The notes beneath the pieces are model-generated. The model was not told the origin of the DNA. It searched no databases and saw only the letters and a program-made list of their open reading frames with translations. From a virus (taxonomy: Duplodnaviria > Caudoviricetes): a DNA stretch of 64,000 bases. Position numbers and translations under genes: made by a program. How positions within the stretch are numbered: position 1 is the stretch's first letter; each line of letters opens with the position of its first letter. Where the stretch lies: IMG/VR virus record IMGVR_UViG_3300036784_000120, positions 32,001 through 96,000 of that record, one strand, 5' to 3'. This document shows, piece by piece, positions 17,005-56,017 of this stretch.

Positions 17005-18144
17005 CTATTGCGGCGCCGATCTGAAGTCTTCGGTGAGGATGTGTTCCGCGGGCACGCCGCGGGCGGTGAGCTGCTCGACAGCGGACGCCGCCATGGCGGA
17101 CGGGCCGGCGGCCAGGACATCATGGCCGCGCCAGTCGCCTGCCTGCGCCGCCACGACAGCGACCGGGCCGTGTTCCCCGCGCCAGCCGGGGGTGACCGCC
17201 GGGCCGGCGGCAACCGCATAGGTGACGGTCAGCCACGGGTACCGTTCCGCGAGCGCGTCGAGTTCCGGGGCGGCGTACAGGTCACGGGGGATCCCGGCGC
17301 CGAAGAACAGGTTCACGGGAAGCACGGTCTGGCGCCGTGCTGCGAGCTCGTAGATGATCGCGAGCATCGGCGCGACCCCGGAGCCTTCCGCGATCATCAG
17401 CAGGGGCCGCGGCGATGCCGGGTCAGCGTAGAGAGAGCCGCCGGTCCGGCCGAGCCGCAGCCGGTCACCGGGCCCGGCATGCAAGGCGAGAGACGGTGCC
17501 ACAAGAGCCCCCTCGGTCATCTGCACGTGGAAAATGATGTCCCGGCGGCCGGGGAGGGTCGCAGGCGCGAACCACTGCCAGTACCGGGGTGCCCCCGCCG
17601 GGAACTGGACGTGGATCCGCTGCCCGGCCCGCCACATCACCGGCTGCTCCGGGCGGGCATGGAGGATAGTGACATCCGCGGTGACCCGTTCCGCGCTGGT
17701 GACCTCCGCTTCCTGCCAGCGGGGCACCCCGGCGTTCACGGCGTCTTTCGCGCCGTTCTGCATGATGTCGGCGATCACCCCGTACGCCTCCGCCCACGTC
17801 GCCTCGAGTTCCGGGGTCCAGGCGTCCCCCGCGAACTTCGCCAGCGTTGCGAGGAGGGCTTCGCCGACCATCGGGTAATGCTCGGGGAGCACCTCATGCT
17901 CAAGGCCGTGGTGGGTGCCGAGCTTGGCCAGGTAGCCGCTGAGGGCTTCCGGGTCGTCGACAGAAGTGATGATGCGGATCAGGGCCTGCAGCAGCACGTC
18001 CCGCTGTTCGGTCATCCCTGCCGGGAACATTCTGCGGACCGGTTCCCCGCCGAGGAGGAACAGCCGGGCGTAAAACACTTCAGCGAGTTCCCCGGCCTGC
18101 GGGGCGACGAGCGCGAAACTCTTCTTGAGTAGCTCGGTGTCCAC
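17005..18144 (-). CDS. Flavohemoglobin-like protein (globin plus FAD/NAD reductase)
   Basis: FYARLF...RRMFP...LGTHH...EHYPMVGEALL globin followed by an FNR-like domain. Confidence 0.85.
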   Translation of the reverse strand: MDTELLKKSFALVAPQAGELAEVFYARLFLLGGEPVRRMFPAGMTEQRDVLLQALIRIITSVDDPEALSGYLAKLGTHHGLEHEVLPEHYPMVGEALLATLAKFAGDAWTPELEATWAEAYGVIADIMQNGAKDAVNAGVPRWQEAEVTSAERVTADVTILHARPEQPVMWRAGQRIHVQFPAGAPRYWQWFAPATLPGRRDIIFHVQMTEGALVAPSLALHAGPGDRLRLGRTGGSLYADPASPRPLLMIAEGSGVAPMLAIIYELAARRQTVLPVNLFFGAGIPRDLYAAPELDALAERYPWLTVTYAVAAGPAVTPGWRGEHGPVAVVAAQAGDWRGHDVLAAGPSAMAASAVEQLTARGVPAEHILTEDFRSAPQ

Positions 18145-39261: not shown

Positions 39262-40746
39262 TCATGCTGCCCTCGCATATCTCGCGCCGCGGCTCGGCAG
39301 CAGCGCCGCACCCGGCCAGGGCGGGCCCGGATAGCAGCGGCAGTTGTGAACTAGAATGCTATTGGCGGTGTACCAGCCGGTCGTGGTCTGGAGGTTGTAG
39401 ACGTGCGTCGAGTCCCGGAACCTGCGGACCTGCCTAACCTGGTCGAACGCTACGACAGAGGCCAGAGCGTCAAGGCGCTCGCCGACGATCTCGGCATGAG
39501 CCGGATGGCGCTGACCAGGTTCCTCCGCGAGAACGGCGTCCAACTCCGCGGCATCACCGACGCTAACCGCCTGCTGGCGGCTAACCGCAGCCCCGAGGAG
39601 CATGCGCGCAACGCCGAGGCGGCTCACGCCGCCGTGCGCGGAAGCCGTCAGACGATCGGGCACCGGACCAAGATCGCCCGCGCCAAGCACGGCCAGGCGA
39701 CCGGGAGCCCCACGGAAATGCTCTATGCCGAGTGGCTGGCCGACCTGCACCCGGTGCATCAGTTCGCGGTCGGCCCGTACAACTGCGACCTGATGATCGA
39801 GCCCGTCGCCGTGGAAATCAACGGCGGCCACTGGCACGGTTCCGGTCGCCACGCGGCCAGGGCCCGCGCCCGCACCGAGTACATCCTCGATCAGGGCTAC
39901 AACATCGTGTTCGTATGGGTCACCGGCCGCACAGGCGGCGCCCGGATCGAGAGCGCGAACTACATACGATCTGTCGTCGAGTTCGCCAGCAGCCCGGTAC
40001 CCCTGCGGGGTAAGTATTGGGTGGTTTGGGGTGACGGTGAGGTCGTACCCATCGGCGGTTACGATCTCGACGAACTCGCCGACGTACCGACGCGCGGCCC
40101 CAAGCAGCACTGACGGCGACACCACCTTGGTGCCCGCCGGGAAGCAGTGCGGGTGGACAGCACCGGGGAACCCTATGTGCGGCATGGCCGTGGCGTAGAA
40201 GTTTTTCCGGTCCGCGGCCATGCACTCGGCGCTGGTCCGGTCGTCGAGCACCGTGTTCCAGCCGAGCAGCGGCCCGTGCTCCACCGCGGCCATATCCGTT
40301 TTCCCTGCCGCAGTGGCCCGGTTCCACATGGCTGCCTGATGCTGCGCATAGAAACGGCGTTCGGTGGCGAGCTGATCCCGGATCGCGGCGGTCACCGGGG
40401 TGCCTTTCGCCCGCGCGTCCCGCGCCGCCCCCATCACCCGGCGGGTCGCGGCGATCACGTACTGGGCGCGGCGGGCCGCGTTCATCCTTGAGGTTTGCTC
40501 CGATGCCGCCCCGATCACCCCGGTCACCGGCGGCGGGGTCTGCATCACGTCGGTGAGGACCCCGCCGAGCGCCTGCCACGTCGCGGCGGGCAGGGCGAAC
40601 CGCCGTTTCAGCAGCGCGACCGCGGAGGCCGCGGATACGGCGGTGACGAGCACCGCGGCGACAGCGACGGCGAGGGCAGCGTCACCCAGGCCGTCATCAC
40701 CCGCCGGCGGCGGCGGGGGCTGCTGCTGCGGTGCCGGGGTGGTCAT
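39262..40746 (-). CDS. MuF/SPP1 gp7-like minor head protein containing an intein
   Basis: WNTVLDDRTSAEC; HPH|CRC is restored after splicing. Confidence 0.88.
   Translation of the reverse strand: MTTPAPQQQPPPPPAGDDGLGDAALAVAVAAVLVTAVSAASAVALLKRRFALPAATWQALGGVLTDVMQTPPPVTGVIGAASEQTSRMNAARRAQYVIAATRRVMGAARDARAKGTPVTAAIRDQLATERRFYAQHQAAMWNRATAAGKTDMAAVEHGPLLGWNTVLDDRTSAECMAADRKNFYATAMPHIGFPGAVHPHCFPAGTKVVSPSVLLGAARRYVGEFVEIVTADGYDLTVTPNHPILTPQGYRAAGELDDRSYVVRALDPGAACAAGDPYEHDVVALIEDVLGAGAGPGRVATGTVPVAAVDFHGDGLDHQVAVVRADRELMHRVQVGQPLGIEHFRGAPGRLAVLGAGDLGPVPDRLTASAHGGVSRLGVARMLLGAAVSRQQAVSVGDAAELDAVLAEEPGQRHPAHAEIVGERLDALASVVAFDQVRQVRRFRDSTHVYNLQTTTGWYTANSILVHNCRCYPGPPWPGAALLPSRGARYARAA
39343..40146 (-). 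mobile_element. Intein (268 aa) inserted in the MuF HPxCRC motif
   Basis: C1 CFPAGTKV, block B TPNHP, block F HVYNL, terminal VHN followed by Cys+1. Confidence 0.92.
39403..40113 (+). CDS. HTH plus Vsr/DUF559-like endonuclease, antisense inside the intein
   Basis: HTH SVKALADDLGMSRMALTRFL; SPTE...QFAVGPYNCDL...AVEINGGHWH...GYNIVFVW; GGAGG 8 nt before the GTG. Confidence 0.82.
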   Translation: MRRVPEPADLPNLVERYDRGQSVKALADDLGMSRMALTRFLRENGVQLRGITDANRLLAANRSPEEHARNAEAAHAAVRGSRQTIGHRTKIARAKHGQATGSPTEMLYAEWLADLHPVHQFAVGPYNCDLMIEPVAVEINGGHWHGSGRHAARARARTEYILDQGYNIVFVWVTGRTGGARIESANYIRSVVEFASSPVPLRGKYWVVWGDGEVVPIGGYDLDELADVPTRGPKQH

Positions 40747-42628: not shown

Positions 42629-42951
42629 TGTGCGGCCCCCGGTGTCCCATGCACCGCTGCCGTCCACGCCGTGATCACGGCCGTCACGAACCGGGGATCC
42701 TGGCTCATCAGCCCGTCCAGGTCGGCAGGCACCGGATGACCGTCGTCGTCCTCCACGTTCCACGACTCCAGGGCGTAGCCGAGCGTCGCGGTCATATGGC
42801 GGAACGCCGCCAGGTCACCGGAGGCGACCGCAGCAGCAGTGTCGAGCATCACCGACATGGGCACCGGCCGGACCGTGATCTCCAGCCCTTCATACTCGGT
42901 GCCGGTGAAGTCCAGCTTGAACGGGGCGCGTTTCGGCCGGAAACCTGTCAC
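42625..42951 (-). CDS. Tail-chaperone-like protein
   Basis: YEGLEITVR...LESWNVEDDDGHPVPADLDGLMSQD. Confidence 0.5.
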   Translation of the reverse strand: MTGFRPKRAPFKLDFTGTEYEGLEITVRPVPMSVMLDTAAAVASGDLAAFRHMTATLGYALESWNVEDDDGHPVPADLDGLMSQDPRFVTAVITAWTAAVHGTPGAAQ

Positions 42952-44557
42952 TGTGCCGCTCCCGGTAGTCCGCCTGCTGCGGGCGGGTTCTGCGGTGGCC
43001 GCGGCGGGCCCGCGGCGGCGGGACGCATCTGCGGTGCCGACGGCGGCCGTGGCCCCTGCTGCCCGCCGCCGGCCCTGGCGGCGGCCTGCTGCGTGATCGC
43101 CGTGCCCGCCTGCGCGAGTCCCTGCAGCTGGCCGAGCCCCGCCGCGGCCTCCGGCGGCATGCCAGGCGGCGGATTGCCAGCTAGCTGTTCGGCACGTTGC
43201 GAAGCGGTAGACACCAGCGCGTCATGCACCTGGTCCACGTCCAGCTGCAGAATCGACGCCATCCGTTCGGTGATCAGGTCAAACACCTGCAGCGGCACGT
43301 GCAGCACCGGCGCCGCCGACATCTGCCCGAACATCGTCAGCAACTGCTGCGCCTGCTCATCCTGAAGCGGACCGAACTTCGCCTGCGGATACGATGCGCC
43401 GGTACCGAAGTTGAGCATCACCAGCGGCCGGATCACGTCGTAGGAGATGGATTCGGCGATTTCCTTCGCCACACCCTGACGCGACTTCAGGTAGAAGTCG
43501 GACTGGTCCTGCGACAGGCTGTAGGCGCCCTTCCCGCCGGTTGACGCGGACGCGAGGCCGAGGAACCCGGCCAGCACACTGCTGATCGCCCACGACGACA
43601 GGAACGACAGCGCCTGGGAGAAGAACAGGCCCGCATCCGCGGACGACGGGATCGCCTCGAACGCCTTCTGCCCGTCGATCGGGTGCACCAGCCCGACGAC
43701 ACCGGAGCCGCGGAGCTGGGAAATGTCGTCGGCGCGGGCGGTGGCTTCCGGCTGGTCGTTGCCGTAGACGACAAGCCGCTGCAACGCCATGTTCTCCAGG
43801 TAGTAGTACCAGAGATACAGCAGCTTCATCTGGGTCGAATGGCACCAGTACGCCACCTCAACCTCGGACACGCCCGTCAGCGGCTCCCGGTGCTTCCCGT
43901 GGGTGTAAATGTAGGAGCGGATCTTCGGGATATCCACATACCCCGGCACCTTCTGCCGCCTGGACAGCATCAGGTTCCCGCCGAACAGCCACACCTGCTG
44001 CCGGAACCCGTTCGCCTCCCCCGACCTGTCGTTATACCGGGCCTGGCACGTGGCAGGCGGGCGGAACGCGATCTTGTCGTAAACGATCTTCCCGTCCGAC
44101 TCGCGGACCTTGAACGTCTTCTCGAAAAACGCCCGCCGGTACAGCTGACCCGACGTGATCTGGCCGAGCAGCTCCGTCATCGGCGTCCGCATGCCGCCCT
44201 CAGTGTCCGGCGTCATCAGCACGCTGCGGATGAAGTCGCATTCGCCTTTGTCGCCCTTGCCGGGCTCAATCGAGAAGTCGGCTTCGCGGATCGGGAGGGT
44301 CAGCACCAGCTCGAGGGCCTGCGCGGTGCCGTTGCGGGAGAACATGGTCTTCAGGTCACGAGACGACCATTCGCCATATTCTTAAATCGAAGACATCACC
44401 CTCGCCGTAGTAGGCGAACAGCCGCTGACCGTAGTCAAACGAGGTCTAAAGTCCCGATCTCAGGACCCATCAGGGTCCGCTTGCCGCCCGGGCCGCGGGA
44501 GCCCTTGGGGGGGAGATCGGGGAAGGCGATCACGTTAGCGTCTTTACCGGATGCCAT
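42948..44557 (-). CDS. Portal protein (about 531 aa), interrupted by two 7-nt TTA-containing inserts
   Basis: Mu gp29/DUF935-like core; N-terminus MASGKDAN...GPEIGT|SFDYGQ...DVFD|YGEWSSRDLKTMF is restored by removing 2x7 nt. Confidence 0.82.
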
Positions 44558-44609
44558 CTTCTTGCATCACCCCCTCTCCGCTGCCAGGGGCGCACAAGGG
44601 CGCCGGTGA

Positions 44610-44631
44610 TGCACGTGCATATGCACGTGCA
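44610..44631. promoter_or_regulatory. TGCACGTGCA-TA-TGCACGTGCA operator, copy 2
   Basis: Perfect 24-bp palindrome 44609-44632 upstream of the portal. Confidence 0.78.
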
Positions 44632-44716
44632 TGGGGCCACGATACCGCCTGCCCGCATGCCGGGCATAGCCACGTACCGCTGTACGCCATGCCGACATGT
44701 GTGGTATGATGTACTT

Positions 44717-45091
44717 GTGGATGAGAAGACGAACGACGGCACGATCACCATGAGGCTGACGCCGTTCCAGGCCACCGAGATCGAGCACGGCCTGGACATC
44801 GACGCCAGCGACGGCAACCCCGACTGGGGTGAGCTGAAGTACGCCGGGCGCCGCACCGGCCCGGCCGTGCTCACCATCCGGGCCGGGCAGCAGAACCTGG
44901 ACGCTGCCCTGTACCGGGTCACGTCCAGCCGGGACATCCCCGCCGACAACGCCAGCGACCCGATGGCCAGCCCCGGCGAGCGGATGGGCTACCTGTCCGC
45001 CGCCCGCTCCCTGGACTCGCTGGTGCAGCGGCTCATCGCCGTTGCCGGCGGCCCGGAAGCATTCAGCAAGAACGTCAGGCGATGGATATGA
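44717..45091 (+). CDS. Hypothetical protein, paralog of 20676..21062
   Basis: Leaderless GTG 6 nt after TATGAT. Confidence 0.72.
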   Translation: MDEKTNDGTITMRLTPFQATEIEHGLDIDASDGNPDWGELKYAGRRTGPAVLTIRAGQQNLDAALYRVTSSRDIPADNASDPMASPGERMGYLSAARSLDSLVQRLIAVAGGPEAFSKNVRRWI

Positions 45092-45342
45092 CCGCCTCCC
45101 CGATCTCGCCGGAGACGATGCGCGAGCACCGTGCCCGCTGGTTCGTCTACGCCGGCAGGGAGAAGATCCGGCACACCGCCACCATGCGCGGCCAGTGGGG
45201 CTACGACGTTGAATGCTCATGCGGGTGGAAGACCCGGACCGGCGGCGGCGTCCGCAGCTACGTAGAGGACGAACTGTTCGCGCACCGTTTCAGCGCCCAG
45301 TGCGACGCTGAGCGGGCCGCGACCGCAGGGGAGACCCGATGA
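45088..45342 (+). CDS. Hypothetical protein (CSCGW)
   Basis: In operon. Confidence 0.55.
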   Translation: MTASPISPETMREHRARWFVYAGREKIRHTATMRGQWGYDVECSCGWKTRTGGGVRSYVEDELFAHRFSAQCDAERAATAGETR

Positions 45343-45632
45343 GCGCCGAGCGAATGCAGGCACCATACCTTCCGTCCGGCGGCACCCGCGTGCCGCTGCC
45401 ATGCGGCCACCACAATGCGCGGCTCCGCCCCGGCGAGCGCACAGCGGAGCGGCGCTGCCGGACCTGCCGCAACTACTACCTCATCGAGTGCTCGGATACT
45501 GAGACCGCGCTGGTCTCGGACATCACGTGCCCGGCATGCGGAGCGAGCATGAACAGCGAGGGTGACATGTGGTGGTGCCCGGGTTGCGGCGACGAATGGG
45601 ACGACGAGACGGTACGGGGAGTGGTGCGCTGA
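45339..45632 (+). CDS. Zn-ribbon protein
   Basis: CRTC, CPAC, CPGC. Confidence 0.6.
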   Translation: MSAERMQAPYLPSGGTRVPLPCGHHNARLRPGERTAERRCRTCRNYYLIECSDTETALVSDITCPACGASMNSEGDMWWCPGCGDEWDDETVRGVVR

Positions 45633-45967
45633 TGGCGACACACGAGTCCGTGGAGATGATCTGCGGGCACAGTGCCCAGCTCACACCTGACAATGCTAGG
45701 CAGGCGCGCAGGAACGGCTCGCTGTTCTGCCCCACATGCGGGCACAAGCAGCCCCTAACGCCTGACTGGCCGGACCGTTCCTGGGTCACGGCCGCCGAGC
45801 TCGCCGCGATCGCGCGGCGCAACGAACGCACCATCCACCGCGAAATCGAACGCAGGAACCTGCACGCCGAACGCGCCGGCGGCGCCCCCTCCCCGTGGAT
45901 CATCGAACGCGCCGAGGCAGAACGGTGGCTGCGCGAGTACAAACCGGAAAGGACGGCAGAACGATGA
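45632..45967 (+). CDS. Zn finger plus excisionase/MerR-like HTH protein
   Basis: WVTAAELAAIARRNERTIHREI...WII. Confidence 0.65.
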   Translation: MATHESVEMICGHSAQLTPDNARQARRNGSLFCPTCGHKQPLTPDWPDRSWVTAAELAAIARRNERTIHREIERRNLHAERAGGAPSPWIIERAEAERWLREYKPERTAER

Positions 45968-46188
45968 CGCGACTGCAGCAGGAGATAGCCGACTACCTGC
46001 ATAGCCCGGTAACCGCCGCCGAAGTCCAGACCGCCGCATACGTGAGGTTCGCGGCATGGATGGCCGCGCACGATACCGGGCCGCGCAGCGTCACGGTCGG
46101 GCAGATCGGCCGGGAATTCCAGAACCTCAGCTACGAGACTATCTGCCGGTGGATCAGGCACTACCGGGGAGGGGAGCAAGAGCAGTGA
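45964..46188 (+). CDS. Small HTH-like protein
   Basis: VGQIGREF..LSYETICRWI. Confidence 0.5.
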   Translation: MTRLQQEIADYLHSPVTAAEVQTAAYVRFAAWMAAHDTGPRSVTVGQIGREFQNLSYETICRWIRHYRGGEQEQ

Positions 46189-46451
46189 GTGACTACATTC
46201 CGCCTGAGCCGTCGTCTCGCGACAAGGTGCTCCACCGGGTGCAAGGCGGCCGGTGGGTGGCCAGCGGGTACGACATGGGACTGGTGCTCAACGACCAGCC
46301 CGAGCACGAAGACGGGGTTCTCGGCGTGGCGGAGTACGAAGGCGGCCCGGTCCTTGAGTTCATCAACGGGCACGCCTACGACACCGGCGTGACCGTGACG
46401 ATCATGATCATCACCACCGAGGCATCCATCCGGACGGAGGACAAGCGATGA
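46185..46451 (+). CDS. Hypothetical protein
   Basis: GTGA overlap. Confidence 0.5.
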   Translation: MSDYIPPEPSSRDKVLHRVQGGRWVASGYDMGLVLNDQPEHEDGVLGVAEYEGGPVLEFINGHAYDTGVTVTIMIITTEASIRTEDKR

Positions 46452-46744
46452 GGTTCCGTGACACGTACGGCGGGTCATGGCCGGGCCCGTACCCCGGCAC
46501 CCGCCGGTGGGCGAGTAGGTCCGTCTCCTACGGGCCGGGCACCGCACTCGCCTACCTGACCGTCAAGACCCTGCTGTGGGTGTTCCTGCTCGGCCCGCTG
46601 TGGATCGTCGCTGAATGCTGGACGGTCCTCATCTCCGCGGCCGCGGTCATGGCCGGCTGGTGGATCACCAAGACGATCCCGCAGTACGACGTGCGGTTCA
46701 TCCCCGGCCGGTTCCGCCTGTGGTACTTCACCGGGAGGCCATGA
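46448..46744 (+). CDS. Membrane protein
   Basis: Hydrophobic core. Confidence 0.55.
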   Translation: MRFRDTYGGSWPGPYPGTRRWASRSVSYGPGTALAYLTVKTLLWVFLLGPLWIVAECWTVLISAAAVMAGWWITKTIPQYDVRFIPGRFRLWYFTGRP

Positions 46745-47034
46745 TGAGCAAACGGCAGGTATTCCGGTACACCGTCCCCATCGACGAACAGCCCCACGTC
46801 ATCCAACTCACCGGTGACCCGCTGCACGTCGCGAACGGCACCCTGATTGATGAGGTTGAGTTCTGGGCTGAGCACGACATGGACGCGCCTGAGTACCCGG
46901 CGGTGTTCCAGGTAGTCGGCACCGGGGATCCGGTGCCCGACGGCGCGGTGCACGCGGGGACGACACCGAGGGATGCAGTCGGCGGCGTGTGGCACCTTTA
47001 CCGGCTTCCGCTAGACGCCGGGAGGCAGTCATGA
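46741..47034 (+). CDS. Conserved small phage protein
   Basis: VFRY...FWAE...FQVVGTG..VP...HAGT...VWHLY. Confidence 0.6.
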   Translation: MMSKRQVFRYTVPIDEQPHVIQLTGDPLHVANGTLIDEVEFWAEHDMDAPEYPAVFQVVGTGDPVPDGAVHAGTTPRDAVGGVWHLYRLPLDAGRQS

Positions 47035-47264
47035 CGGCCACCCGGTGCCGTGGCCGCGCCCGGCACTGGCGGATCGCGTTCGGCACCGTCGGGCTCCGCA
47101 CCCCCGTGTGCGTGTACTGCGGCGACCCGAACCCGAAACCGCTCACCGACCAGGAGTGGGCCGAGCTGATCTACTACAGCACGACCGTCCGCAACGCCGG
47201 CGGCCAGTACGTACGGGCGGCGATTGAGGCGCGCGAGGCGGAGAAAGCCGGGAGGCCGCAGTGA
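47031..47264 (+). CDS. Hypothetical protein
   Basis: CVYC. Confidence 0.5.
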   Translation: MTATRCRGRARHWRIAFGTVGLRTPVCVYCGDPNPKPLTDQEWAELIYYSTTVRNAGGQYVRAAIEAREAEKAGRPQ

Positions 47265-47566
47265 ACGGCCCCGCTAGGGACGGAGAAACCGTGATGCAGG
47301 ACGACGACCCGAGGAAGATTGAGATCAAGCCCGGTGACCGGGTGGCGATCCACTACCCGTCCAGCGGTCCGGGCAGGGCCGCGTCGGAGTCGGCTGAGAC
47401 GATCGCGGCCGCCATGGACGTGGTGGAGAAACTGGTGCCCGGCTGCACCTGGCGGCGGTACCCGGCGGAGTTGGCCGAGCCGACCCGCGCCCAGGCGGTC
47501 GTGCTGAACTGCCACAAGCCTGACGGCAGTTACACCGGCTACCAGGTCCACTGGATTCGGCGGTGA
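47261..47566 (+). CDS. Hypothetical protein
   Basis: Overlaps neighbours. Confidence 0.5.
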   Translation: MNGPARDGETVMQDDDPRKIEIKPGDRVAIHYPSSGPGRAASESAETIAAAMDVVEKLVPGCTWRRYPAELAEPTRAQAVVLNCHKPDGSYTGYQVHWIRR

Positions 47567-47790
47567 CCGAGCATGAGGGGCCGGGTCACGGGGACGTGAC
47601 GCTGAGCCTCACCGAGGAAACCAAGGACGGCGGGCGGCTGTTCCAGTCGTGGAAGGTCTGTGAATGCACCGCCGTCGCGCTGCGAGCCCGGCTAGGGCCC
47701 GCGCAGCATGAGAGCATCGCCACCGCTGAGGCTGTCCGCGCGACCGCGGAAGCGGTCCTGAACCAGCCGGGTGCCGTACACCGCCTGTGA
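47563..47790 (+). CDS. Hypothetical protein
   Basis: GTGA overlap. Confidence 0.5.
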   Translation: MTEHEGPGHGDVTLSLTEETKDGGRLFQSWKVCECTAVALRARLGPAQHESIATAEAVRATAEAVLNQPGAVHRL

Positions 47791-47810
47791 TGATGGGGGC
47801 CGGGGGCGGG

Positions 47811-47885
47811 GCGGGAGCCGGCCCCTGTACCGTTCAATTGGGGACTCAAGCGGTACAAGGTTAGACGGGGTTAGCCGGCTCCCGC
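47811..47885. terminator. Long interrupted hairpin (terminator or structured RNA)
   Basis: gcgggagccggc...tgtaccg...cggtaca...gccggctcccgc. Confidence 0.55.
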
Positions 47886-47977
47886 CGGCTAAAGGCAACC
47901 ACCCAGCAGCATCACCGCCCTAAGTTACGAGGCGTGTCCGCTTCCAGCATGACACACGCATGGCATACTGCAAGCCC

Positions 47978-48229
47978 ATGAATGAGGAGAGCGAGGCGCT
48001 GGCCCTCGCCCGGGTCCGCGCCCAACTCCGTACCGGGGAAGCACGGGCGATCCGGAAACAGGCCGGCCTGTCCCAGGCAGACGTAGGCCGTGCGGTGGGC
48101 AGTGACGGGCCGCAAGTGTCCCGCTGGGAGACGCAGAAGTCGGTGCCGCGGCGGGAGTCGGCGCTGAAACTCGCCCGGCTGCTCGACGATCTCGACGCGA
48201 TGAACCGCAGCGGCGACGGTGGTGCCTAA
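47978..48229 (+). CDS. XRE/Cro-like HTH protein
   Basis: IRKQAGLSQADVGRAVGSDGPQVSRWE. Confidence 0.8.
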   Translation: MNEESEALALARVRAQLRTGEARAIRKQAGLSQADVGRAVGSDGPQVSRWETQKSVPRRESALKLARLLDDLDAMNRSGDGGA

Positions 48230-48466
48230 CTCCGGCCACCGCCCGGCCTGCTTCAGCAGGTCCAGGTCGTGGGGTGACAGGAACCCGAGATCGTTCATCA
48301 GCCGCAGCTCGTGATCGCTGAACATGGCGGTCATCGCGCCGACCCAACATGAGGTCGGCCTGCCGTCGGCACCTGTCACGCTCGCGCTCAAATCGGCCGG
48401 CCACGTCGGGGACCTGCCGGGACCTGAACGGGTCAAGGACCGGCCCTACGTTGACGGTGCCGTCGC

Positions 48467-49297
48467 TCACCGGGCACCTGCCCATGCGCGCTGGTAGGCG
48501 CTGACCAGCCACCGGTTAGCCACGTCGTAGTTCGGATGCTCAGGCAGCGGCGACGCCAGCGGCGACGCCAGCAGGTCCCTGATCCGTGCCTCGAGCTGGT
48601 CGGCGAGCATCAGCGCCCGGTCCATCGGGACCAGCCCCGTGCGGATGTCGCGGACGATCTCCCGCTGCCACTCCGGCATGGGAAGCGTGATCTGGCCGGT
48701 TTCCAGCAGCTCCACGCCCTGGAAGCCGAGCCGGACCATGTGGCCGCCGAACTTGGTGTCCCAGCCGTAGGCCGCGATCAGTTCGGGGCGGGTGACATCG
48801 CGGCCTTTCCCGTCGTGGGACAGCATCGACCGGCGCTGCGCGTGCAGGTACCCGGCGAACCGGTGCCCCGCCTGCCTTGAGACGATCAGCGGGGTGAGGT
48901 CCCGCAGGTCCGCGCCGAGCGGCGTGATCGTGACGATCTCCGCGGGCGGGACGAACAGGGGGATCAGGATCGACGGGTTCCCGGCCAGCGCGAGACGCAG
49001 GTACTTGCGCAGCGAGTAGATCGTGATGTCCAGGTCGCCGGGGCCGGACCGGTTGGCGAGCCCGCCGGGGCGTTCCCACGCGGTGTGATGCTCGTACTGG
49101 TCGAACTCGCGGAGCCCGATCACGTACTCGGCCGGCTCAGTGCAGATGCCCATCTCGTCGCGGTCGTCGTGGCCGGTGATCGCGGTGCCGTGGACACCGG
49201 AGCCGACCTGGCAGCGCAGGATGGTGGCCGATTCGGCGAGCTCGCGGAACTCCGCGCTGCCGTGCTTGCCGGGACTGCGGTATTCCGTGTCGCTCAT
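48467..49297 (-). CDS. Pol-beta superfamily nucleotidyltransferase (YcgL/RlaP-like)
   Basis: VGSGVHG...DDRDEMG, GNPS, GWDTK...HMVRL. Confidence 0.85.
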   Translation of the reverse strand: MSDTEYRSPGKHGSAEFRELAESATILRCQVGSGVHGTAITGHDDRDEMGICTEPAEYVIGLREFDQYEHHTAWERPGGLANRSGPGDLDITIYSLRKYLRLALAGNPSILIPLFVPPAEIVTITPLGADLRDLTPLIVSRQAGHRFAGYLHAQRRSMLSHDGKGRDVTRPELIAAYGWDTKFGGHMVRLGFQGVELLETGQITLPMPEWQREIVRDIRTGLVPMDRALMLADQLEARIRDLLASPLASPLPEHPNYDVANRWLVSAYQRAWAGAR

Positions 49298-49347
49298 GCA
49301 CCCCAGCATACCCGTTCGGCTACATAGGGCATAGTAGACTACTGGTC

Positions 49348-49815
49348 ATGTCGAAGACTCGCATGACGCTCCAGGCGAAGACGGTGCTCCGCATGCTCGC
49401 AGCCGACCCCGGCCGTGAGGTGTACGGCCTGGAAATCATACGCGCGACCGGGCTGATCAGCGGTTCCGTCTACCCCCTCCTGGGCCGCCTGGAATCGAGC
49501 GGCTGGCTGACATCACGGGCCGAGCAGATCACCCCGGCCACCGAGGGGCGGCCGCCGCGCCGCTACTACCGGATCACGCCGGCAGGCATCGCGCAGGCAC
49601 GCGCACTACCACCCGCGCAGGCATCCCCCGCAGAAAAAGCCCTGGCGCGCGGGATGCTCCAGATCGCTGACACTGCGGACATGCCAGACTCGTTCTGGCA
49701 GGCCGACAGGCGCATCAGGCTAGCCCGTGAGGTCCTCGGCGTGCCCGACGACGGCCGGTACACCCACAGCGCACTATGGGAAGCGGAAACCAGAGACGAG
49801 GCGGCCAGAGCATGA
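49348..49815 (+). CDS. PadR-family regulator
   Basis: YGLEI...SGSVYPLLGRLESSGWL...RRYYRITPAG. Confidence 0.88.
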   Translation: MSKTRMTLQAKTVLRMLAADPGREVYGLEIIRATGLISGSVYPLLGRLESSGWLTSRAEQITPATEGRPPRRYYRITPAGIAQARALPPAQASPAEKALARGMLQIADTADMPDSFWQADRRIRLAREVLGVPDDGRYTHSALWEAETRDEAARA

Positions 49816-49967
49816 CCGGCGAACATGAAATGGTCACGGTTCGCCGCGATGACCTGGCGGTGTTCCTGGCCGCAGTGGATACCGACTACGTAAGCACCGA
49901 TGACCTGCCGGACCTTCAGGACCGGATCGAGCGGCTCTATGCGGCCATCGGCGAGGAGACCGGATGA
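49812..49967 (+). CDS. Small hypothetical protein
   Basis: ATGA overlaps. Confidence 0.45.
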   Translation: MTGEHEMVTVRRDDLAVFLAAVDTDYVSTDDLPDLQDRIERLYAAIGEETG

Positions 49968-50513
49968 CTGACGACAATGTGACGCCGTTCCGGCGGCCCG
50001 GCCAGGCTCCGCCGCCGGCCGGTGAGCTGAGCCGTGCCCGCGCGCTCGCCGCCGAGCAGAACGCCGGCCCCCGGGAACGCTACGGGGCTGCGATCAGCCG
50101 GCAGCGCGCCGAACGGCTCATCGCGACCGGGAAAGTTGTCCCGGCCCGCATCACCATGGCGCTCGACATCCGTGACCTCGAGGGCCCCGAAGTTGACATC
50201 GCATGCGGCGCCGCCGAGCCGGACGTGGACATGTGGGAGCTGGGCCTGGCCGTCCCGTCGCCGGAACAGGTGACGCTGCTCGCCGAGCTGACCGGATTCC
50301 AGCCCGCGTTCTTCTACAATCCGATCGAGCCCGGTCCGCTCGCCGCGTCGGCGATATTCATGTGCAGCGGCCCGCACCTGCACGGTCACCGCGCCGGACG
50401 TGGTGGATGAGAACGGGGTGCTGCTGTACGAAGGGAAGCCCCGCAATCTGCCCGCCGCCGTGCTCCGCAAGATGCGCAAACAGCCGCCCGCCGGGCAGGG
50501 AGCACTGTTCTGA
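49964..50513 (+). CDS. HTH protein with an apparent 1-nt frameshift near 50371
   Basis: PARITMALD...VDMWELG HTH; coding-like continuation in another frame to ...GQGALF. Confidence 0.55.
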
Positions 50514-50680
50514 TGACGAGACCCGTCCCGGAAGAGACACCGGAGGACTGGCTGCTTTCCGCTCGGCAGCATTCCCTACCTGGATAGCAGCGGCGAGATC
50601 CTGATCAGGACGCCGTACGGTGACACGATCGGCAAGAACGGACTAGCGACAGCAGGGGGACGGCCCTGGGGGGTTCATCC

Positions 50681-50765
50681 GGCTAGGGGAAGAGTCGAAC
50701 TTCTCCCCCCGAAGGGGGCCTGGCATCCCGTATCCACCGGGCCACTCCTGTCCTGGTGGTTAGCC
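50681..50765 (-). ncRNA. tRNA-like structured RNA (degenerate)
   Basis: GGCTA/TAGCC terminal stem, T-arm GAAG-TTCGACT-CTTC, cUUCGg hairpin. Confidence 0.4.
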
Positions 50766-50816
50766 AAGTCACAAGTCCCGGACACCGCAGCCGAATGCTC
50801 GCCAGCATAACCCGGG

Positions 50817-51026
50817 TCATGCCCGCCGGGCCACCGCGTGCAGCGCATACACGAACGCGAGGTGATACCCGTCTTCGGCGAGCAGCTTGTCCAGCCGGTC
50901 GGTGTAGCCGTCGTCGCGGCCGACGGCGAGGCGGAACATTGCGGTCTGGGCCAGCACCCGCGCCGCGCGCTGCGGCGTCATGATCTGCTCCATCCGCGCC
51001 ACCGTCATGTACTCCTCGGGTTTCAC
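50817..51026 (-). CDS. Hypothetical protein
   Basis: 69 aa, AAAGG RBS. Confidence 0.5.
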   Translation of the reverse strand: MKPEEYMTVARMEQIMTPQRAARVLAQTAMFRLAVGRDDGYTDRLDKLLAEDGYHLAFVYALHAVARRA

Positions 51027-51165
51027 CCGGCCACCTTTCAGTTCACCGCCATGATTTGACGTTGCCCCGGCCGGAAGTTCACGCCCCAGGGGTGCTGACC
51101 GGGCATCCTACCGCCACGATCGGACATTCCCCCCGTATCACCGGGTACAGGTTAAACTAGATCCC

Positions 51166-51591
51166 ATGCCGTATGCCGATCCAGAGAAGCACAGAAAATG
51201 GCAGCGTGAGTGGATGGCTCGGCGGCGTGCCGAGTGGATAGCTGCGCACGGCCCTTGCGTGGACTGCCGCACTTGGGACGATCTACAGGTAGACCATGTT
51301 GACGCCTCGACAAAGGTCACTCACCGGGTCTGGTCCTGGGCCAAAGAGAGGCGCGAGGAGGAGCTGGCTAAGTGCACCGTCCGGTGTGCCCCGTGTCACG
51401 AAGCGAAGACGACAGCCAGCCGCGAGGATCCCCGCGGCGAGCAGCACTGGGCCGCGAAGCTGAAAGACGACCAGATACCGGACATCCGCGCCTCACAGCT
51501 TTCGATTTCACACCTGGCTAGGGTTTACGGCGTCAGCCGGAAGGCTATCCGCAATGTGCGCCAGGGAAAGACCTGGCTTCACGTCGCTTAG
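51166..51591 (+). CDS. HNH endonuclease with C-terminal HTH
   Basis: CVDC...QVDHVD...CAPCHEAKT; leaderless after TAAACT. Confidence 0.85.
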   Translation: MPYADPEKHRKWQREWMARRRAEWIAAHGPCVDCRTWDDLQVDHVDASTKVTHRVWSWAKERREEELAKCTVRCAPCHEAKTTASREDPRGEQHWAAKLKDDQIPDIRASQLSISHLARVYGVSRKAIRNVRQGKTWLHVA

Positions 51592-51594
51592 TCC

Positions 51595-53287
51595 CTATCG
51601 CCACGACTTGACGTTGCCCCGGCCGCGGTCCGGTTGCGCCTGGTCATCGTCGTCTGGCGAAAAGCCGTCCAGGTCCCACGGGGCCGCATCCATGTTCTGC
51701 TGCGCCTTCTCCATGATTTCCCGCATCCTGCGATGCCCGCGTGCTTCCTCCCCGATGCCCATGTCCGCGAGGTTCTGCGCGCCTGCCCACTTCCGTACGG
51801 CACCCGGCCCGTACTCGCCGAGGTGCGGCACGAACGCCTGCACCACGGCGTCGCCGTCGTCGGTGGACCGGCCGAGCCGCTCCCGGATGTCGTCTTTGCC
51901 TTCCACCTGGATCCGGCCGCTTGACGTGACATCCCACTGCGGTGTCGACAGGTCACCGAGCAGCATCTCGTCGTCCGGCAGGCAGATGTCCGGGCGGGCC
52001 GACGGGTCCAGGGCCTGCCGCAGCGTCCACCACGCTTCACTCCTGCGGTTGGCGAACCCGAACTCGCGGGTGGAGTCTTTCGCCTTCGACCCGCGGGACG
52101 CGTTGAACGCCAGCACCCTGGCGTGCTGCTCGCGGAGCCGGTCGACGACACCCGCGCCGATACCGATCACGTCAACCACGGCGGTGCGGGAATCGTCAGC
52201 GGACAGGATCGCGTTCACCCGCCCCGTGGTTTTCATCGTGTCTTCCCGCACGAACCGGCGCAGCTCCGTGATCACGGGCCCGTTACGGATCGCGAGGACA
52301 GTGCGGTCCTCACCGGTCCTGGCCACGTCCACCCCGACGGTGCGGGGCCTGCCCAGGTCCGGCTTGCCCGCAGCCTCCCACTCATGCCAGCGGGCCACCG
52401 CCGCCTCAGCCCACGCCAGCGGGATAACCGAATCCTCGTCGCCGGCGTGGAACTCGCCGAGCACCCGGTTCACGTAGATCGCTGACGTTTCACCCCACTG
52501 GCGGAGCCGCTGCGCCGCCCAGTCCCTGGTGACCCGCCCCGCCGTGATCGCGTCGTCGAGGGTGACATGGACCGGATACCAGTCCTCGTACCCCTGCCGG
52601 CGTGACTGAATGTCGTAGAACCGGCCCTGCGGTGCCCCCGGCGTCGACAGTGCCAGCGCGAACGCTTCCCTCGTGCCGTCCCCGGCGCCGGAGAACGCGC
52701 CTTCGCACGCGTCGAACGTGCCCGCCGGGATCGCCTTGCTCTCGTCGTAGACGAACAGCAGCGAATCGGCGTGCGCGCCTTCGATCAGCGCCGCGTTAGC
52801 TGACGCGCCGGCGAACGCATGCCCGTAACTGAGCCGCAAGTTCAGGTTCTGCAGCTCCGCCCGGGTGAACGGGTGGCCGTCACGGACCCTCCCCCATTTG
52901 ATCCGGCCGGCCCACTTGTGGATTTCCGGCCACAGGTACTGGGTCAGCTGATGCCATGACCCGGCGGTCGTCGCGACCTTCCAGTCCACGCCGGCGGCGT
53001 CCCGGGTCAACGCAAACCACAGCACCGTCACCGCCGCGATGGTGCTTTTGCCCAGTCCTTAATCCATGGGGGCCGCGGACCGCTTCGCGTTTCCGCTGCG
53101 GCAGGCCCCCAATGATTTCCTCCTGGTATCCGGTCAGCCCCTCGCCGCGCCAGTCGATGCAGTCCGCGGCGAAGCCGAGCGGGTCATCGTAGTAGCGGGC
53201 GACGCCCTGCTTGATTTTCGCTGCGCGCCGCTGCAGTTCCAGCAGGTAGCGCAGCCGGTCAGCCGGCGCCTGTATCTGCGGGGTCAT
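51595..53287 (-). CDS. terL: Terminase large subunit (about 561 aa), interrupted by a 7-nt TTA insert in Walker A
   Basis: GPHG|LGKST restored; VYDE Walker B, LSTP, VGVDVARTGED, STDDGDA. Confidence 0.9.
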
Positions 53288-55474: not shown

Positions 55475-56017
55475 TCAGGCTTGCTGTTGCCTCCGGGGCT
55501 TCTTCCACTGCGCGTAGTAATGACGGTCGCACAGCCCCCGGCATACAGCATGCTCGCCGCAGTCCGGCTCAGAGCATGTGCCGCCGTTGATGAGTACCCG
55601 TTCCCGCTGATTTTCCCGCTGCTGCGCAGGTGTCGCCCACCGGCAGTTGCCCGGCTCGTAGTTCCCGTCGTTGTCGATGCGGTCAAGCGACGTGCCGGGC
55701 GGGCGTTCCCCCATGTCGGCCGCGAAGTTGTCGAACGAGTTCCACCGCTCACAGACGGTGATGCCCCGGCCGCCGTACAGTTCCCATCCGATGAAGTTCG
55801 GGTTCGTGCACCGCGTCCGCATCGAGCACCAGCTCTGGTACTCAGGCGAGGCGCGGTCACCGCTCCTGCGCCCCGGCCCCCACGATTCGAGCGGATCGCC
55901 GTGCCTGCGGTAGTTCGACAAGTGCTCCATGCACCAGCGCCCGTACCGGCTCTGCGAGAACTCGCCGCACCCGTCGATGATGCAGATCGTCCAGTCACCA
56001 TCGCGTTCAACTGCCAC
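55475..56017 (-). CDS. HNH homing endonuclease
   Basis: WCSMRTRC...YGGRGITVCERW...SLDRIDNDGNYEPGNCRWAT. Confidence 0.88.
   Translation of the reverse strand: MAVERDGDWTICIIDGCGEFSQSRYGRWCMEHLSNYRRHGDPLESWGPGRRSGDRASPEYQSWCSMRTRCTNPNFIGWELYGGRGITVCERWNSFDNFAADMGERPPGTSLDRIDNDGNYEPGNCRWATPAQQRENQRERVLINGGTCSEPDCGEHAVCRGLCDRHYYAQWKKPRRQQQA

What the first reader, a model, noticed from the sequence alone, without database searches (positions are those of the whole stretch)
44379..44452. Two tandem 7-nt TTA bypass elements in the portal gene
Seen: from ATG 44557 the minus strand reads ...GGG ACT TTA G ACC TCG... (44443-44452), and about 20 codons later GAT TTA A GAA TAT (44379-44388). In both, an in-frame TTA follows a take-off codon, and a near-cognate landing codon (ACT/ACC, GAT/GAA) sits 7 nt downstream. 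Normal decoding hits TGA soon after each site; skipping 7 nt twice gives a seamless N-terminus in frame with the portal core. Known: UUA is the rare bldA-tRNA-dependent codon in Streptomyces, and T4 gene 60 uses matched-codon hopping. Inference: full-length portal is made only when ribosomes stall on a hungry UUA and hop twice, a double gate tying packaging to host tRNA-Leu(UAA) level or developmental stage.
Basis: partly seen in the sequence, partly recalled or inferred. Interest (0 to 1): 0.92.

Follow-up and report, generated by a model that had tools for sequence, protein, structure and literature searches.

The report
Portal gene needing two ribosome hops
The essential portal gene of this uncultured soil phage is broken by two 7-base inserts that begin with the very rare codon TTA and are most likely skipped by the ribosome; about 65 differently built versions in related phages, often travelling with a selfish DNA-cutting gene, turn a recoding curiosity known from three Streptomyces phage genes into a large testable natural series.

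Summary
Observation confirmed at the given coordinates; a re-assembly of the likely source run carries both inserts. Skipping 7 nt twice gives a 531-aa Mu-type portal whose N-terminus matches 24 uninterrupted homologs. A third such gap splits the terminase Walker A motif (53062-53056). Relatives give about 65 gap alleles at 11 or more sites, mostly 4-19 nt, all led by an in-frame TTA or a stop codon. In all 56 curated alleles the landing triplet matches the take-off tRNA at 2-3 positions (48/48 testable; null mean 10.8). The inter-gap segment is under purifying selection. Ribosomal bypassing is therefore very likely (about 0.88; no peptide evidence). Gaps travel with homing-endonuclease genes or inteins, and gapped 5' ends are swapped into otherwise 99-100% identical phages, as with T4 gene 60/mobA. 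This genome has no nuclease beside its portal. Published for phiHau3-type terminases; no portal case found in the papers searched. The scan noted the same kind on other genomes. New variant of a known kind; interest 0.66.

The parts
44566..44579 (-). Strong Shine-Dalgarno site, 8 nt before the portal start codon
   Evidence: duplex with anti-SD -18.5 kcal/mol against -3.8 for Met 44345
44450..44557 (-). Portal coding segment 1 (36 codons), ending in take-off codon ACT (Thr) at 44452-44450
   Evidence: aligns with uninterrupted homologs
44443..44449 (-). Coding gap 1 (7 nt): TTA, one base, landing codon ACC (cognate for the same tRNA-Thr)
   Evidence: absent from 24 homologs; 5-10-nt gaps at this site in 11 non-redundant gap-bearing portals
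44386..44442 (-). Portal coding segment 2 (19 codons), ending in take-off codon GAT (Asp) at 44388-44386
   Evidence: pN/pS 0.12 among gap-bearing alleles
44379..44385 (-). Coding gap 2 (7 nt): TTA, one base, landing triplet GAA (2 of 3 match to tRNA-Asp)
   Evidence: 8- and 9-nt versions in L009 and L030, a TGA-led 4-nt version in L285; gap and downstream bases can form a hairpin covering Met 44345, z -2.8
42948..44378 (-). Portal coding segment 3 (476 codons plus stop), Mu-type portal core; contains the weak internal Met at 44345
   Evidence: PF06074 Portal_Mu E 2.8e-24; phrog_113 portal
53063..53287 (-). Terminase large subunit segment 1, ending in take-off codon GGA inside the Walker A motif
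53056..53062 (-). Third coding gap (7 nt) in the terminase Walker A motif: TTA, one base, exact landing codon GGA
   Evidence: same gap in L041/L079, L063, L081; 11-nt version in L085; CGA landing in L037/L091; absent from the other homologs aligned
51595..53055 (-). Terminase large subunit segment 2; the joined protein is 561 aa
   Evidence: phrog_2 terminase large subunit
51166..51591 (+). Free-standing HNH endonuclease gene next to the terminase 3' end; no link to the gaps shown
   Evidence: phrog_4234 E 4e-30; not found beside other terminase-gap loci
55475..55921 (-). Second HNH endonuclease gene (start not fixed), about 2.7 kb upstream of the terminase gap; no link shown
   Evidence: phrog_3377 E 1.5e-39

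Best explanation
The two 7-nt inserts, and the third in the terminase, are short non-coding gaps crossed by translational bypassing. Shown from sequence: translation should start at 44557, and the portal is whole only if both gaps are skipped. Inferred (about 0.88): the ribosome stalls with the rare UUA in the A site, the peptidyl-tRNA (Thr, then Asp) lets go of its codon, slides 7 nt, re-pairs at a triplet matching at least 2 of 3 positions, and resumes; ribosomes that decode UUA as Leu terminate within 4 or 9 codons. Inferred purpose (about 0.6 given hopping): the gaps are the smallest possible insertions in conserved motifs attacked by homing endonucleases. They spread with the nuclease gene or intein as part of a swapped 5' tract, and probably spoil the cut site, as the T4 gene 60 gap does for MobA. 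They are tolerated because portal and terminase are needed in few copies and UUA is slow in the host. In this genome the portal-side nuclease gene is absent, so its two gaps would be inherited marks or resistance alleles. Any coupling to tRNA-Leu(UAA) supply would be a by-product, possibly exploited.
For: Homologs without inserts. 56 curated alleles at 11 sites: first triplet TTA 50, TGA 4, TAG 2; 48/48 gaps of 7 nt or more land on a 2-of-3 or better match, null mean 10.8, maximum 24 in 20,000 draws; six alleles match by decoding rules though only 1 of 3 letters is identical. A blind procedure on a held-out metagenome set gave 8-9 new alleles obeying the same rule. In-frame gaps holding stop codons (L012, L033, L046, L055, L094) cannot be solved by frameshifting. 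pN/pS 0.12 between the gaps. Nuclease gene or remnant upstream in 19/36 gapped against 1/23 ungapped loci (queries drawn from gapped loci) and 4/5 against 2/32 in the held-out set, p 0.001 (one of the 5 is an ambiguous 2-nt case). The gap at column 233 occurs only in the 5 portals with a nuclease-bearing intein 33 nt upstream. Sister pair L060/L078 differs by an extra nuclease gene plus a gap. L285 and L255 are 99-100% identical to ungapped phages downstream but 58-90% in the first 56 codons. Synonymous divergence peaks in the gap region (pS 0.85 against 0.51-0.65). Precedents: PMC10732093, bioRxiv 10.1101/2022.08.31.505936, PMC5009743.
Against: No RNA, ribosome-profiling or peptide data. This genome has no nuclease gene next to its portal, and 17 of 36 gapped loci have none detected. 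No nuclease link was found for the terminase gap beyond an intein site three codons away. Most gapped loci form one clade, so the counts are not independent. No cleavage site was mapped. No conserved stimulatory RNA structure or SD signal was found, so high hop efficiency with up to four gaps per gene is unexplained. Gap boundaries were placed by hand where placements were equivalent. The host is not identified.
Confidence: 0.6

Rival explanations
1. Regulatory gate (first reader; the Smith 2013 model for phiHau3): hopping is real, but the gaps are kept to make packaging depend on scarcity of charged tRNA-Leu(UAA), sensing host growth phase or development. Not exclusive with the best explanation.
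For: TTA leads most alleles; both packaging genes are gapped here; all 33 non-redundant members of the main clade carry at least one gap (p 0.013 with sites independent); the genome has a tyrosine-recombinase-like gene (seen by eye); reporter support for phiHau3 (PMC10732093).
Against: Stop-led alleles occur at the same sites; p rises to 0.12 when the mutually exclusive neighbouring sites are merged; probable hosts are not Streptomyces and bldA's developmental role may be confined to Streptomycineae (PMC4255298); many relatives have no gap; a sensor would not need 11 sites or swapped tracts.
Confidence: 0.22
2. Expression attenuator: inefficient hops were selected to cut the output of low-copy assembly proteins (portal, terminase) from strongly initiated late mRNA.
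For: Very strong start SD; gaps found only in portal and terminase among genes with homolog cover, not in the capsid gene; any slow triplet, TTA or stop, would serve.
Against: Does not explain the link to nucleases and inteins or the swapped tracts; a weaker start site would be simpler; ungapped relatives exist.
Confidence: 0.08
3. Ordinary +1 or -1 ribosomal frameshifting at the hungry UUA, adding two extra residues, instead of a hop.
For: A 7-nt gap is formally a +1 change; the shortest alleles (2-5 nt) shade into frameshifting.
Against: Gap lengths fall in all three frames (28/23/5); in-frame gaps contain stops; landing triplets are conserved to match; among the terminase homologs aligned, the only other insertions at Walker A are inteins; mass spectrometry favoured bypassing for phiHau3.
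Confidence: 0.05
4. The inserts are removed from RNA (mini-introns, cut and ligate) or from DNA (excision, phase variation) before translation.
For: Most gaps are flanked by a 2-3-nt direct repeat; the phage encodes an RlaP-family nucleotidyltransferase.
Against: Gaps start at a codon boundary with a slow triplet, share no 3' consensus, and six match by tRNA rules, not by letter identity; the covering contig shows only the inserted form (though contigs drop rare variants).
Confidence: 0.03
5. Defective phage, assembly error, or a portal that simply starts at Met 44345.
For: A 465-aa ORF from Met 44345 holds most of the Pfam match; the structure model could not show that the N-terminus is needed.
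Against: Re-assembly agrees; dozens of different alleles; purifying selection upstream of Met 44345; no SD at 44345; the terminase gap splits Walker A, which no restart could repair.
Confidence: 0.02

Closest known systems
UUA-led coding gaps in the large terminase genes of Streptomyces phage phiHau3 (two of 10 nt), prophage StrepC.1 and the S. catenulae prophage (7 nt) (Smith et al. 2013; Antonov et al. 2023, PMC10732093)
   Same: In-frame UUA after a take-off codon, short gap, landing codon, tandem gaps in one packaging gene; a 7-nt gap is already on record. By my reading of the printed sequences, the first phiHau3 junction also lies in the Walker A region.
   Different: Here in a Mu-type portal as well as an unrelated terminase; about 65 alleles at 11 or more sites against 4 published sites; mostly imperfect landings (35 of 56); stop-led alleles; link to homing endonucleases; host probably not Streptomyces; no consistent stem-loop or SD signal.
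Phage T4 gene 60 bypass and the mobA homing-endonuclease cassette (Bonocora 2011 as cited in bioRxiv 10.1101/2022.08.31.505936 and PMC5009743)
   Same: A bypassed insert in an essential phage gene that travels with a free-standing nuclease gene and is thought to protect its target; a slow A-site triplet at take-off.
   Different: Gaps of 4-19 nt, not 50; trigger mostly a rare sense codon; no shared take-off stem-loop; many sites and several nuclease families (HNH with NUMOD3, HNH_3, T5orf172, intein-borne); nuclease missing beside this portal; protection not tested.
Mitochondrial byps of the yeast Magnusiomyces capitatus (as reviewed in PMC5009743 and the bioRxiv paper above)
   Same: Many inserts per gene family, several per gene, two-out-of-three landing, apparent independence from mRNA context.
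   Different: Those are 27-55-nt GC-cluster-like elements led by an unused codon; here the gaps are shorter and unrelated in sequence, and the UUA-reading tRNA gene exists in the candidate host family.
bldA/UUA translational control in Streptomyces (adpA)
   Same: UUA is the rarest codon and is used as a control point.
   Different: Logic inverted (product is made when UUA is not read); host not shown to be a streptomycete; stop codons can substitute.

Membership tests
Mu-type phage portal (PF06074) | Profile match above the curated cut-off, in a head-packaging module | tested here: met
   86.5 bits against cut-off 23.9; terminase upstream, head genes downstream
phiHau3-type UUA bypass | In-frame UUA at the 5' end of a frame-breaking insert in an essential gene | tested here: met
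phiHau3-type UUA bypass | Flanks contiguous in homologs that lack the insert | tested here: met
   24 uninterrupted portals; 58 uninterrupted terminases used for the profile
phiHau3-type UUA bypass | Landing codon matching the take-off codon | tested here: met
   cognate at gap 1 and the terminase gap, 2 of 3 at gap 2; 56/56 alleles at 2 of 3 or better
phiHau3-type UUA bypass | Proposed stem-loop and internal SD stimulators | tested here: inconclusive
   hairpin z -2.8 and SD -10.8 kcal/mol at gap 2 only; across 66 sites mean z -0.33 and -0.43, no stronger than gap-free alleles
phiHau3-type UUA bypass | Junction peptide or full-length product | not testable with these tools
   needs reporter and mass spectrometry
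phiHau3-type UUA bypass | Streptomyces host with bldA-dependent switch | tested here: inconclusive
   relatives co-binned with Streptosporangiaceae (L076, L077, G290), Kineosporiaceae and Mycobacterium MAGs; nearest isolated Streptomyces phage portals 36% identical; no spacer or prophage junction found
T4 gene 60/mobA cassette | Bypass insert co-mobile with a free-standing homing endonuclease | tested here: inconclusive
   met for many relatives but no nuclease beside the portal of this genome
T4 gene 60/mobA cassette | 50-nt gap, stop codon in the A site, take-off stem-loop, topoisomerase gene | tested here: not met
   7-nt gaps, UUA trigger, portal gene; works like it, not a member
T4 gene 60/mobA cassette | Insert protects against the nuclease | not testable with these tools
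   needs cleavage assays
Magnusiomyces byps | Trigger codon unassigned (no cognate tRNA) | tested here: not met
   tRNA-Leu(TAA) gene present in 4/4 contiguous family genomes checked and in G003; host itself unproven

The most novel reading that the evidence does not exclude
In a soil actinobacterial lineage whose UUA-reading tRNA carries C33 in place of the near-invariant U33 (97 of 151 sampled Streptosporangiaceae genomes), UUA acts as a near-constitutive hop signal. Its phages exploit this as a general-purpose translational intron: 4-19-nt gaps that arise repeatedly in homing-endonuclease targets, need no cis stimulator, are crossed efficiently enough to stack up to four per essential gene, and confer immunity to the nuclease.
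Probability: 0.25. Interest if true: 0.88.

Novelty: new variant of a known kind. Interest (0 to 1): 0.66.

Why it matters
Natural translational bypassing in bacteria rests on T4 gene 60 and on four UUA sites in three Streptomyces phage terminase genes, with only partial experimental support. This family supplies about 65 natural variants of gap length, take-off codon, landing match and trigger in two essential genes, so the rules of re-pairing (first-position mismatches, G-U at position 2, stop versus hungry codon) can be tested with short reporters. It also separates the two published explanations, host-state sensor versus nuclease-immunity insert, and here the comparative evidence leans to the second. 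In practice, gene callers truncate these portals and terminases, so such phages are mis-annotated as defective.

Tried and rejected
Host lacks tRNA-Leu(UAA): suggested by a pattern search (55/151) and rejected, because the pattern missed a C33 form and a covariance model found the gene. C33 as proof of poor decoding: not accepted, since C33 has little effect in a yeast tRNA-Leu (bioRxiv 10.64898/2026.02.20.707122), and TTA use in three C33 genomes is low (0.2-1.9 per 10,000 against 2.4 in one U33 genome) but near compositional expectation. TTA avoidance by the phage beyond GC bias: 3 observed, about 3 expected from the CTA, TTG and CTG counts. Conserved RNA structure or SD signal at gaps: none. 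AlphaFold model of an ungapped homolog: pLDDT 57, residues 1-48 under 50, uninformative; no fold search run. A regex scan for HNH genes failed and was replaced by Pfam and tblastn. Host by spacers or host-like genes: nothing decisive. No RNA holder listed among sequencing runs. No phage tRNA. The Smith 2013 paper could not be opened and is cited through PMC10732093. The tree is the quick version; three compensated 2-5-nt artefacts (L263, L283, L286) and the compensated shifts near column 324 were left out of allele counts.

Full report
Observation. The window is part of a 127,789-bp, 69.6% GC phage contig with no tRNA gene. On the minus strand the frame from ATG 44557 runs 36 codons to ACT (44452-44450), followed in frame by TTA, one base and ACC. 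After a 7-nt skip it runs 19 codons to GAT (44388-44386), followed by TTA, one base and GAA. After a second skip it joins the Mu-type portal core. Standard decoding ends at TGA 44437 or TGA 44358. The joined frame is 531 aa. ATG 44557 has a very strong Shine-Dalgarno site and Met 44345 has none. A third gap of the same build, GGA then TTA, one base and GGA, splits the Walker A motif of the terminase large subunit at 53062-53056. These are the only frame switches found in genome regions covered by homologs. Logan contigs of run X1, possibly the source sample, match both regions without a difference. TTA is the rarest codon, 3 of 36,790 in called genes.

Homologs. 74 viral contigs, 4 MAG contigs and 80 metagenome contigs carry relatives of the portal. 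About forty others carry one to four inserts, found by a profile-to-DNA alignment. Curated, these give 56 alleles at 11 sites (10 in the portal, 1 in the terminase), 4-19 nt long, in all three frames. Fifty start with in-frame TTA, four with TGA and two with TAG. Every landing triplet matches the take-off tRNA at two or three positions: 48 of 48 gaps of 7 nt or more, against a null mean of 10.8 and a maximum of 24 in 20,000 draws. Six match under decoding rules although only one letter is identical, which points to tRNA re-pairing and not sequence duplication. Because I placed equivalent boundaries by hand there, I repeated the test blind on the metagenome set; 8-9 new alleles obeyed the same rule, with one ambiguous 2-nt case (L259) and three compensated artefacts. 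Several gaps are in frame and contain a stop, which frameshifting cannot cross. Among gapped alleles the stretch between the gaps has pN/pS 0.12, so it is being read as portal protein.

Mechanism. These facts make translational bypassing the likely way the protein is made (about 0.88; inference, no peptide seen). The ribosome pauses on a slow A-site triplet, the peptidyl-tRNA detaches, slides and re-pairs. No shared RNA structure or internal SD was found over 66 sites, although gap 2 here can form a hairpin that covers Met 44345 (z -2.8). The gap region is AT-shifted and less stable in gapped alleles (GC3 0.60-0.66 against 0.84-0.91), which may ease sliding or may reflect sequence replacement.

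Why the gaps exist. Earlier notes of this scan pointed to homing endonucleases, and I tested that. Genes with HNH, NUMOD3 or T5orf172 domains lie directly upstream of many gapped portals. A nuclease gene or remnant was found in 19 of 36 gapped and 1 of 23 ungapped loci (queries came from gapped loci and most gapped loci form one clade), and in 4 of 5 against 2 of 32 in the held-out set. The gap at profile column 233 occurs only in the five portals that carry a nuclease-bearing intein 33 nt upstream, including one in a distant clade. Sister phages L060 and L078 differ by about 650 extra bases encoding a nuclease and by a TGA-led gap. L285 and L255 are 99-100% identical to ungapped phages over most of the gene but only 58-90% in the first 56 codons, so the gapped 5' end is exchanged as a block. 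Gap combinations are mosaic on the tree, and synonymous divergence peaks at the gaps. The terminase gap lies three codons from an intein insertion site. This is the pattern expected if gaps are minimal insertions that spoil nuclease targets and spread by co-conversion, as described for T4 gene 60 and mobA. Against it: this genome has no nuclease beside its portal, its two nearest HNH genes flank the terminase module with no shown link, and no cut site is mapped.

The regulatory reading. It is favoured by the dominance of TTA and by every member of the main clade having at least one gap (p 0.013, but 0.12 when neighbouring exclusive sites are merged). It is weakened by stop-led alleles and by the host evidence. 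Relatives are co-binned with Streptosporangiaceae (three MAGs), Kineosporiaceae and Mycobacterium, the closest isolated Streptomyces phage portals are 36% identical, and no prophage junction or spacer was found. A review states that bldA's developmental role may not extend beyond Streptomycineae (PMC4255298). The candidate host family does encode tRNA-Leu(TAA), but 97 of 151 sampled genomes, including two MAGs holding relatives (G003, G290), have a form with C33 instead of U33. That may make UUA slow at all times, but C33 is nearly harmless in a yeast tRNA and codon counts were not decisive. It is a lead only.

Comparison and novelty. The elements meet the sequence-level criteria of phiHau3-type UUA bypass. 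The only review of that kind lists three terminase genes and no portal, and four further literature searches found no portal case; most subscription papers are not searchable. They work like the T4 gene 60 cassette in their link to nucleases and like Magnusiomyces byps in their loose landing, but are members of neither. This scan has noted similar gaps in portal, tape-measure and tail genes of other genomes and the terminase gap of this one; those notes are not independent support.

Verdict. Real; new variant of a known kind. Bypassing about 0.88; nuclease-linked origin as the main reason about 0.6 given bypassing; developmental sensor about 0.22. Interest 0.66: not a new mechanism, but it multiplies the known natural cases more than tenfold, extends them to a second essential gene and probably another host family, and makes the sensor-versus-immunity question directly testable.

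Noticed in passing
L171:1501-1576, L172-L174; G003:C479:7342-7373; G290:C80:38205: In 97 of 151 sampled Streptosporangiaceae genomes the tRNA-Leu(TAA) has C33 instead of the near-invariant U33; 55 have the U33 form, mostly larger genomes. No earlier scan note found.
   Followed up: partly
window 39262-40746 (-) and 39403-40113 (+): A probable head morphogenesis gene carries an intein (PF14890, below cut-off) that holds an opposite-strand 236-aa ORF with HTH and weak restriction-endonuclease-like (MTES_1575) matches.
   Followed up: no
window 44717-51591: About 7 kb of mostly plus-strand small genes, an RlaP-family nucleotidyltransferase (48467-49309, minus) and an HNH gene separate terminase from portal; in many relatives the two genes are adjacent.
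   Followed up: partly
window 44609-44632: A perfect palindrome of at least 22 nt just upstream of the portal SD, with similar sequence in L001 and others; possible operator or late-promoter element.
   Followed up: no
L030 portal: Four gaps in one gene (8, 7, 9 and 8 nt; one TGA-led), implying high hop efficiency.
   Followed up: partly
L255/L256 column 27; L265 column 57; L259 column 26: Very short cases: a lone in-frame TTA after Phe, a 2-nt TTA-led shift, and a 2-nt shift on a T run with TTG in the A site; possible birth stages of gaps or sequencing slips.
   Followed up: partly
L065 column 38: An in-frame TGA replaces the conserved Gly after the Tyr pair with no extra bases: read-through or a short hop.
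   Followed up: no
L061:1462-3315 and L044:4665-6371: Fused multi-nuclease ORFs (recombinase-type DNA-binding domain, T5orf172, HNH_3, HNH, NUMOD3 in L061) directly upstream of gapped portals, as if successive homing endonuclease genes piled up.
   Followed up: partly
L033, L042, L045, L050, L067, L068 near profile columns 323-327: Compensated frameshift pair (11 and 13 nt) in a Gly-rich loop of one portal subclade, without TTA; probably an alignment effect or an old double shift.
   Followed up: no
window 17005-18144 (-): Globin plus oxidoreductase-like gene, family common in Streptosporangiaceae (115/151) but at most 42% identical.
   Followed up: partly
L166 (G123:C12:406710-409736): Dense array of 14 tRNA genes in 2 kb, including an Ile(TAT) call; looks like a mobile tRNA cluster.
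   Followed up: no
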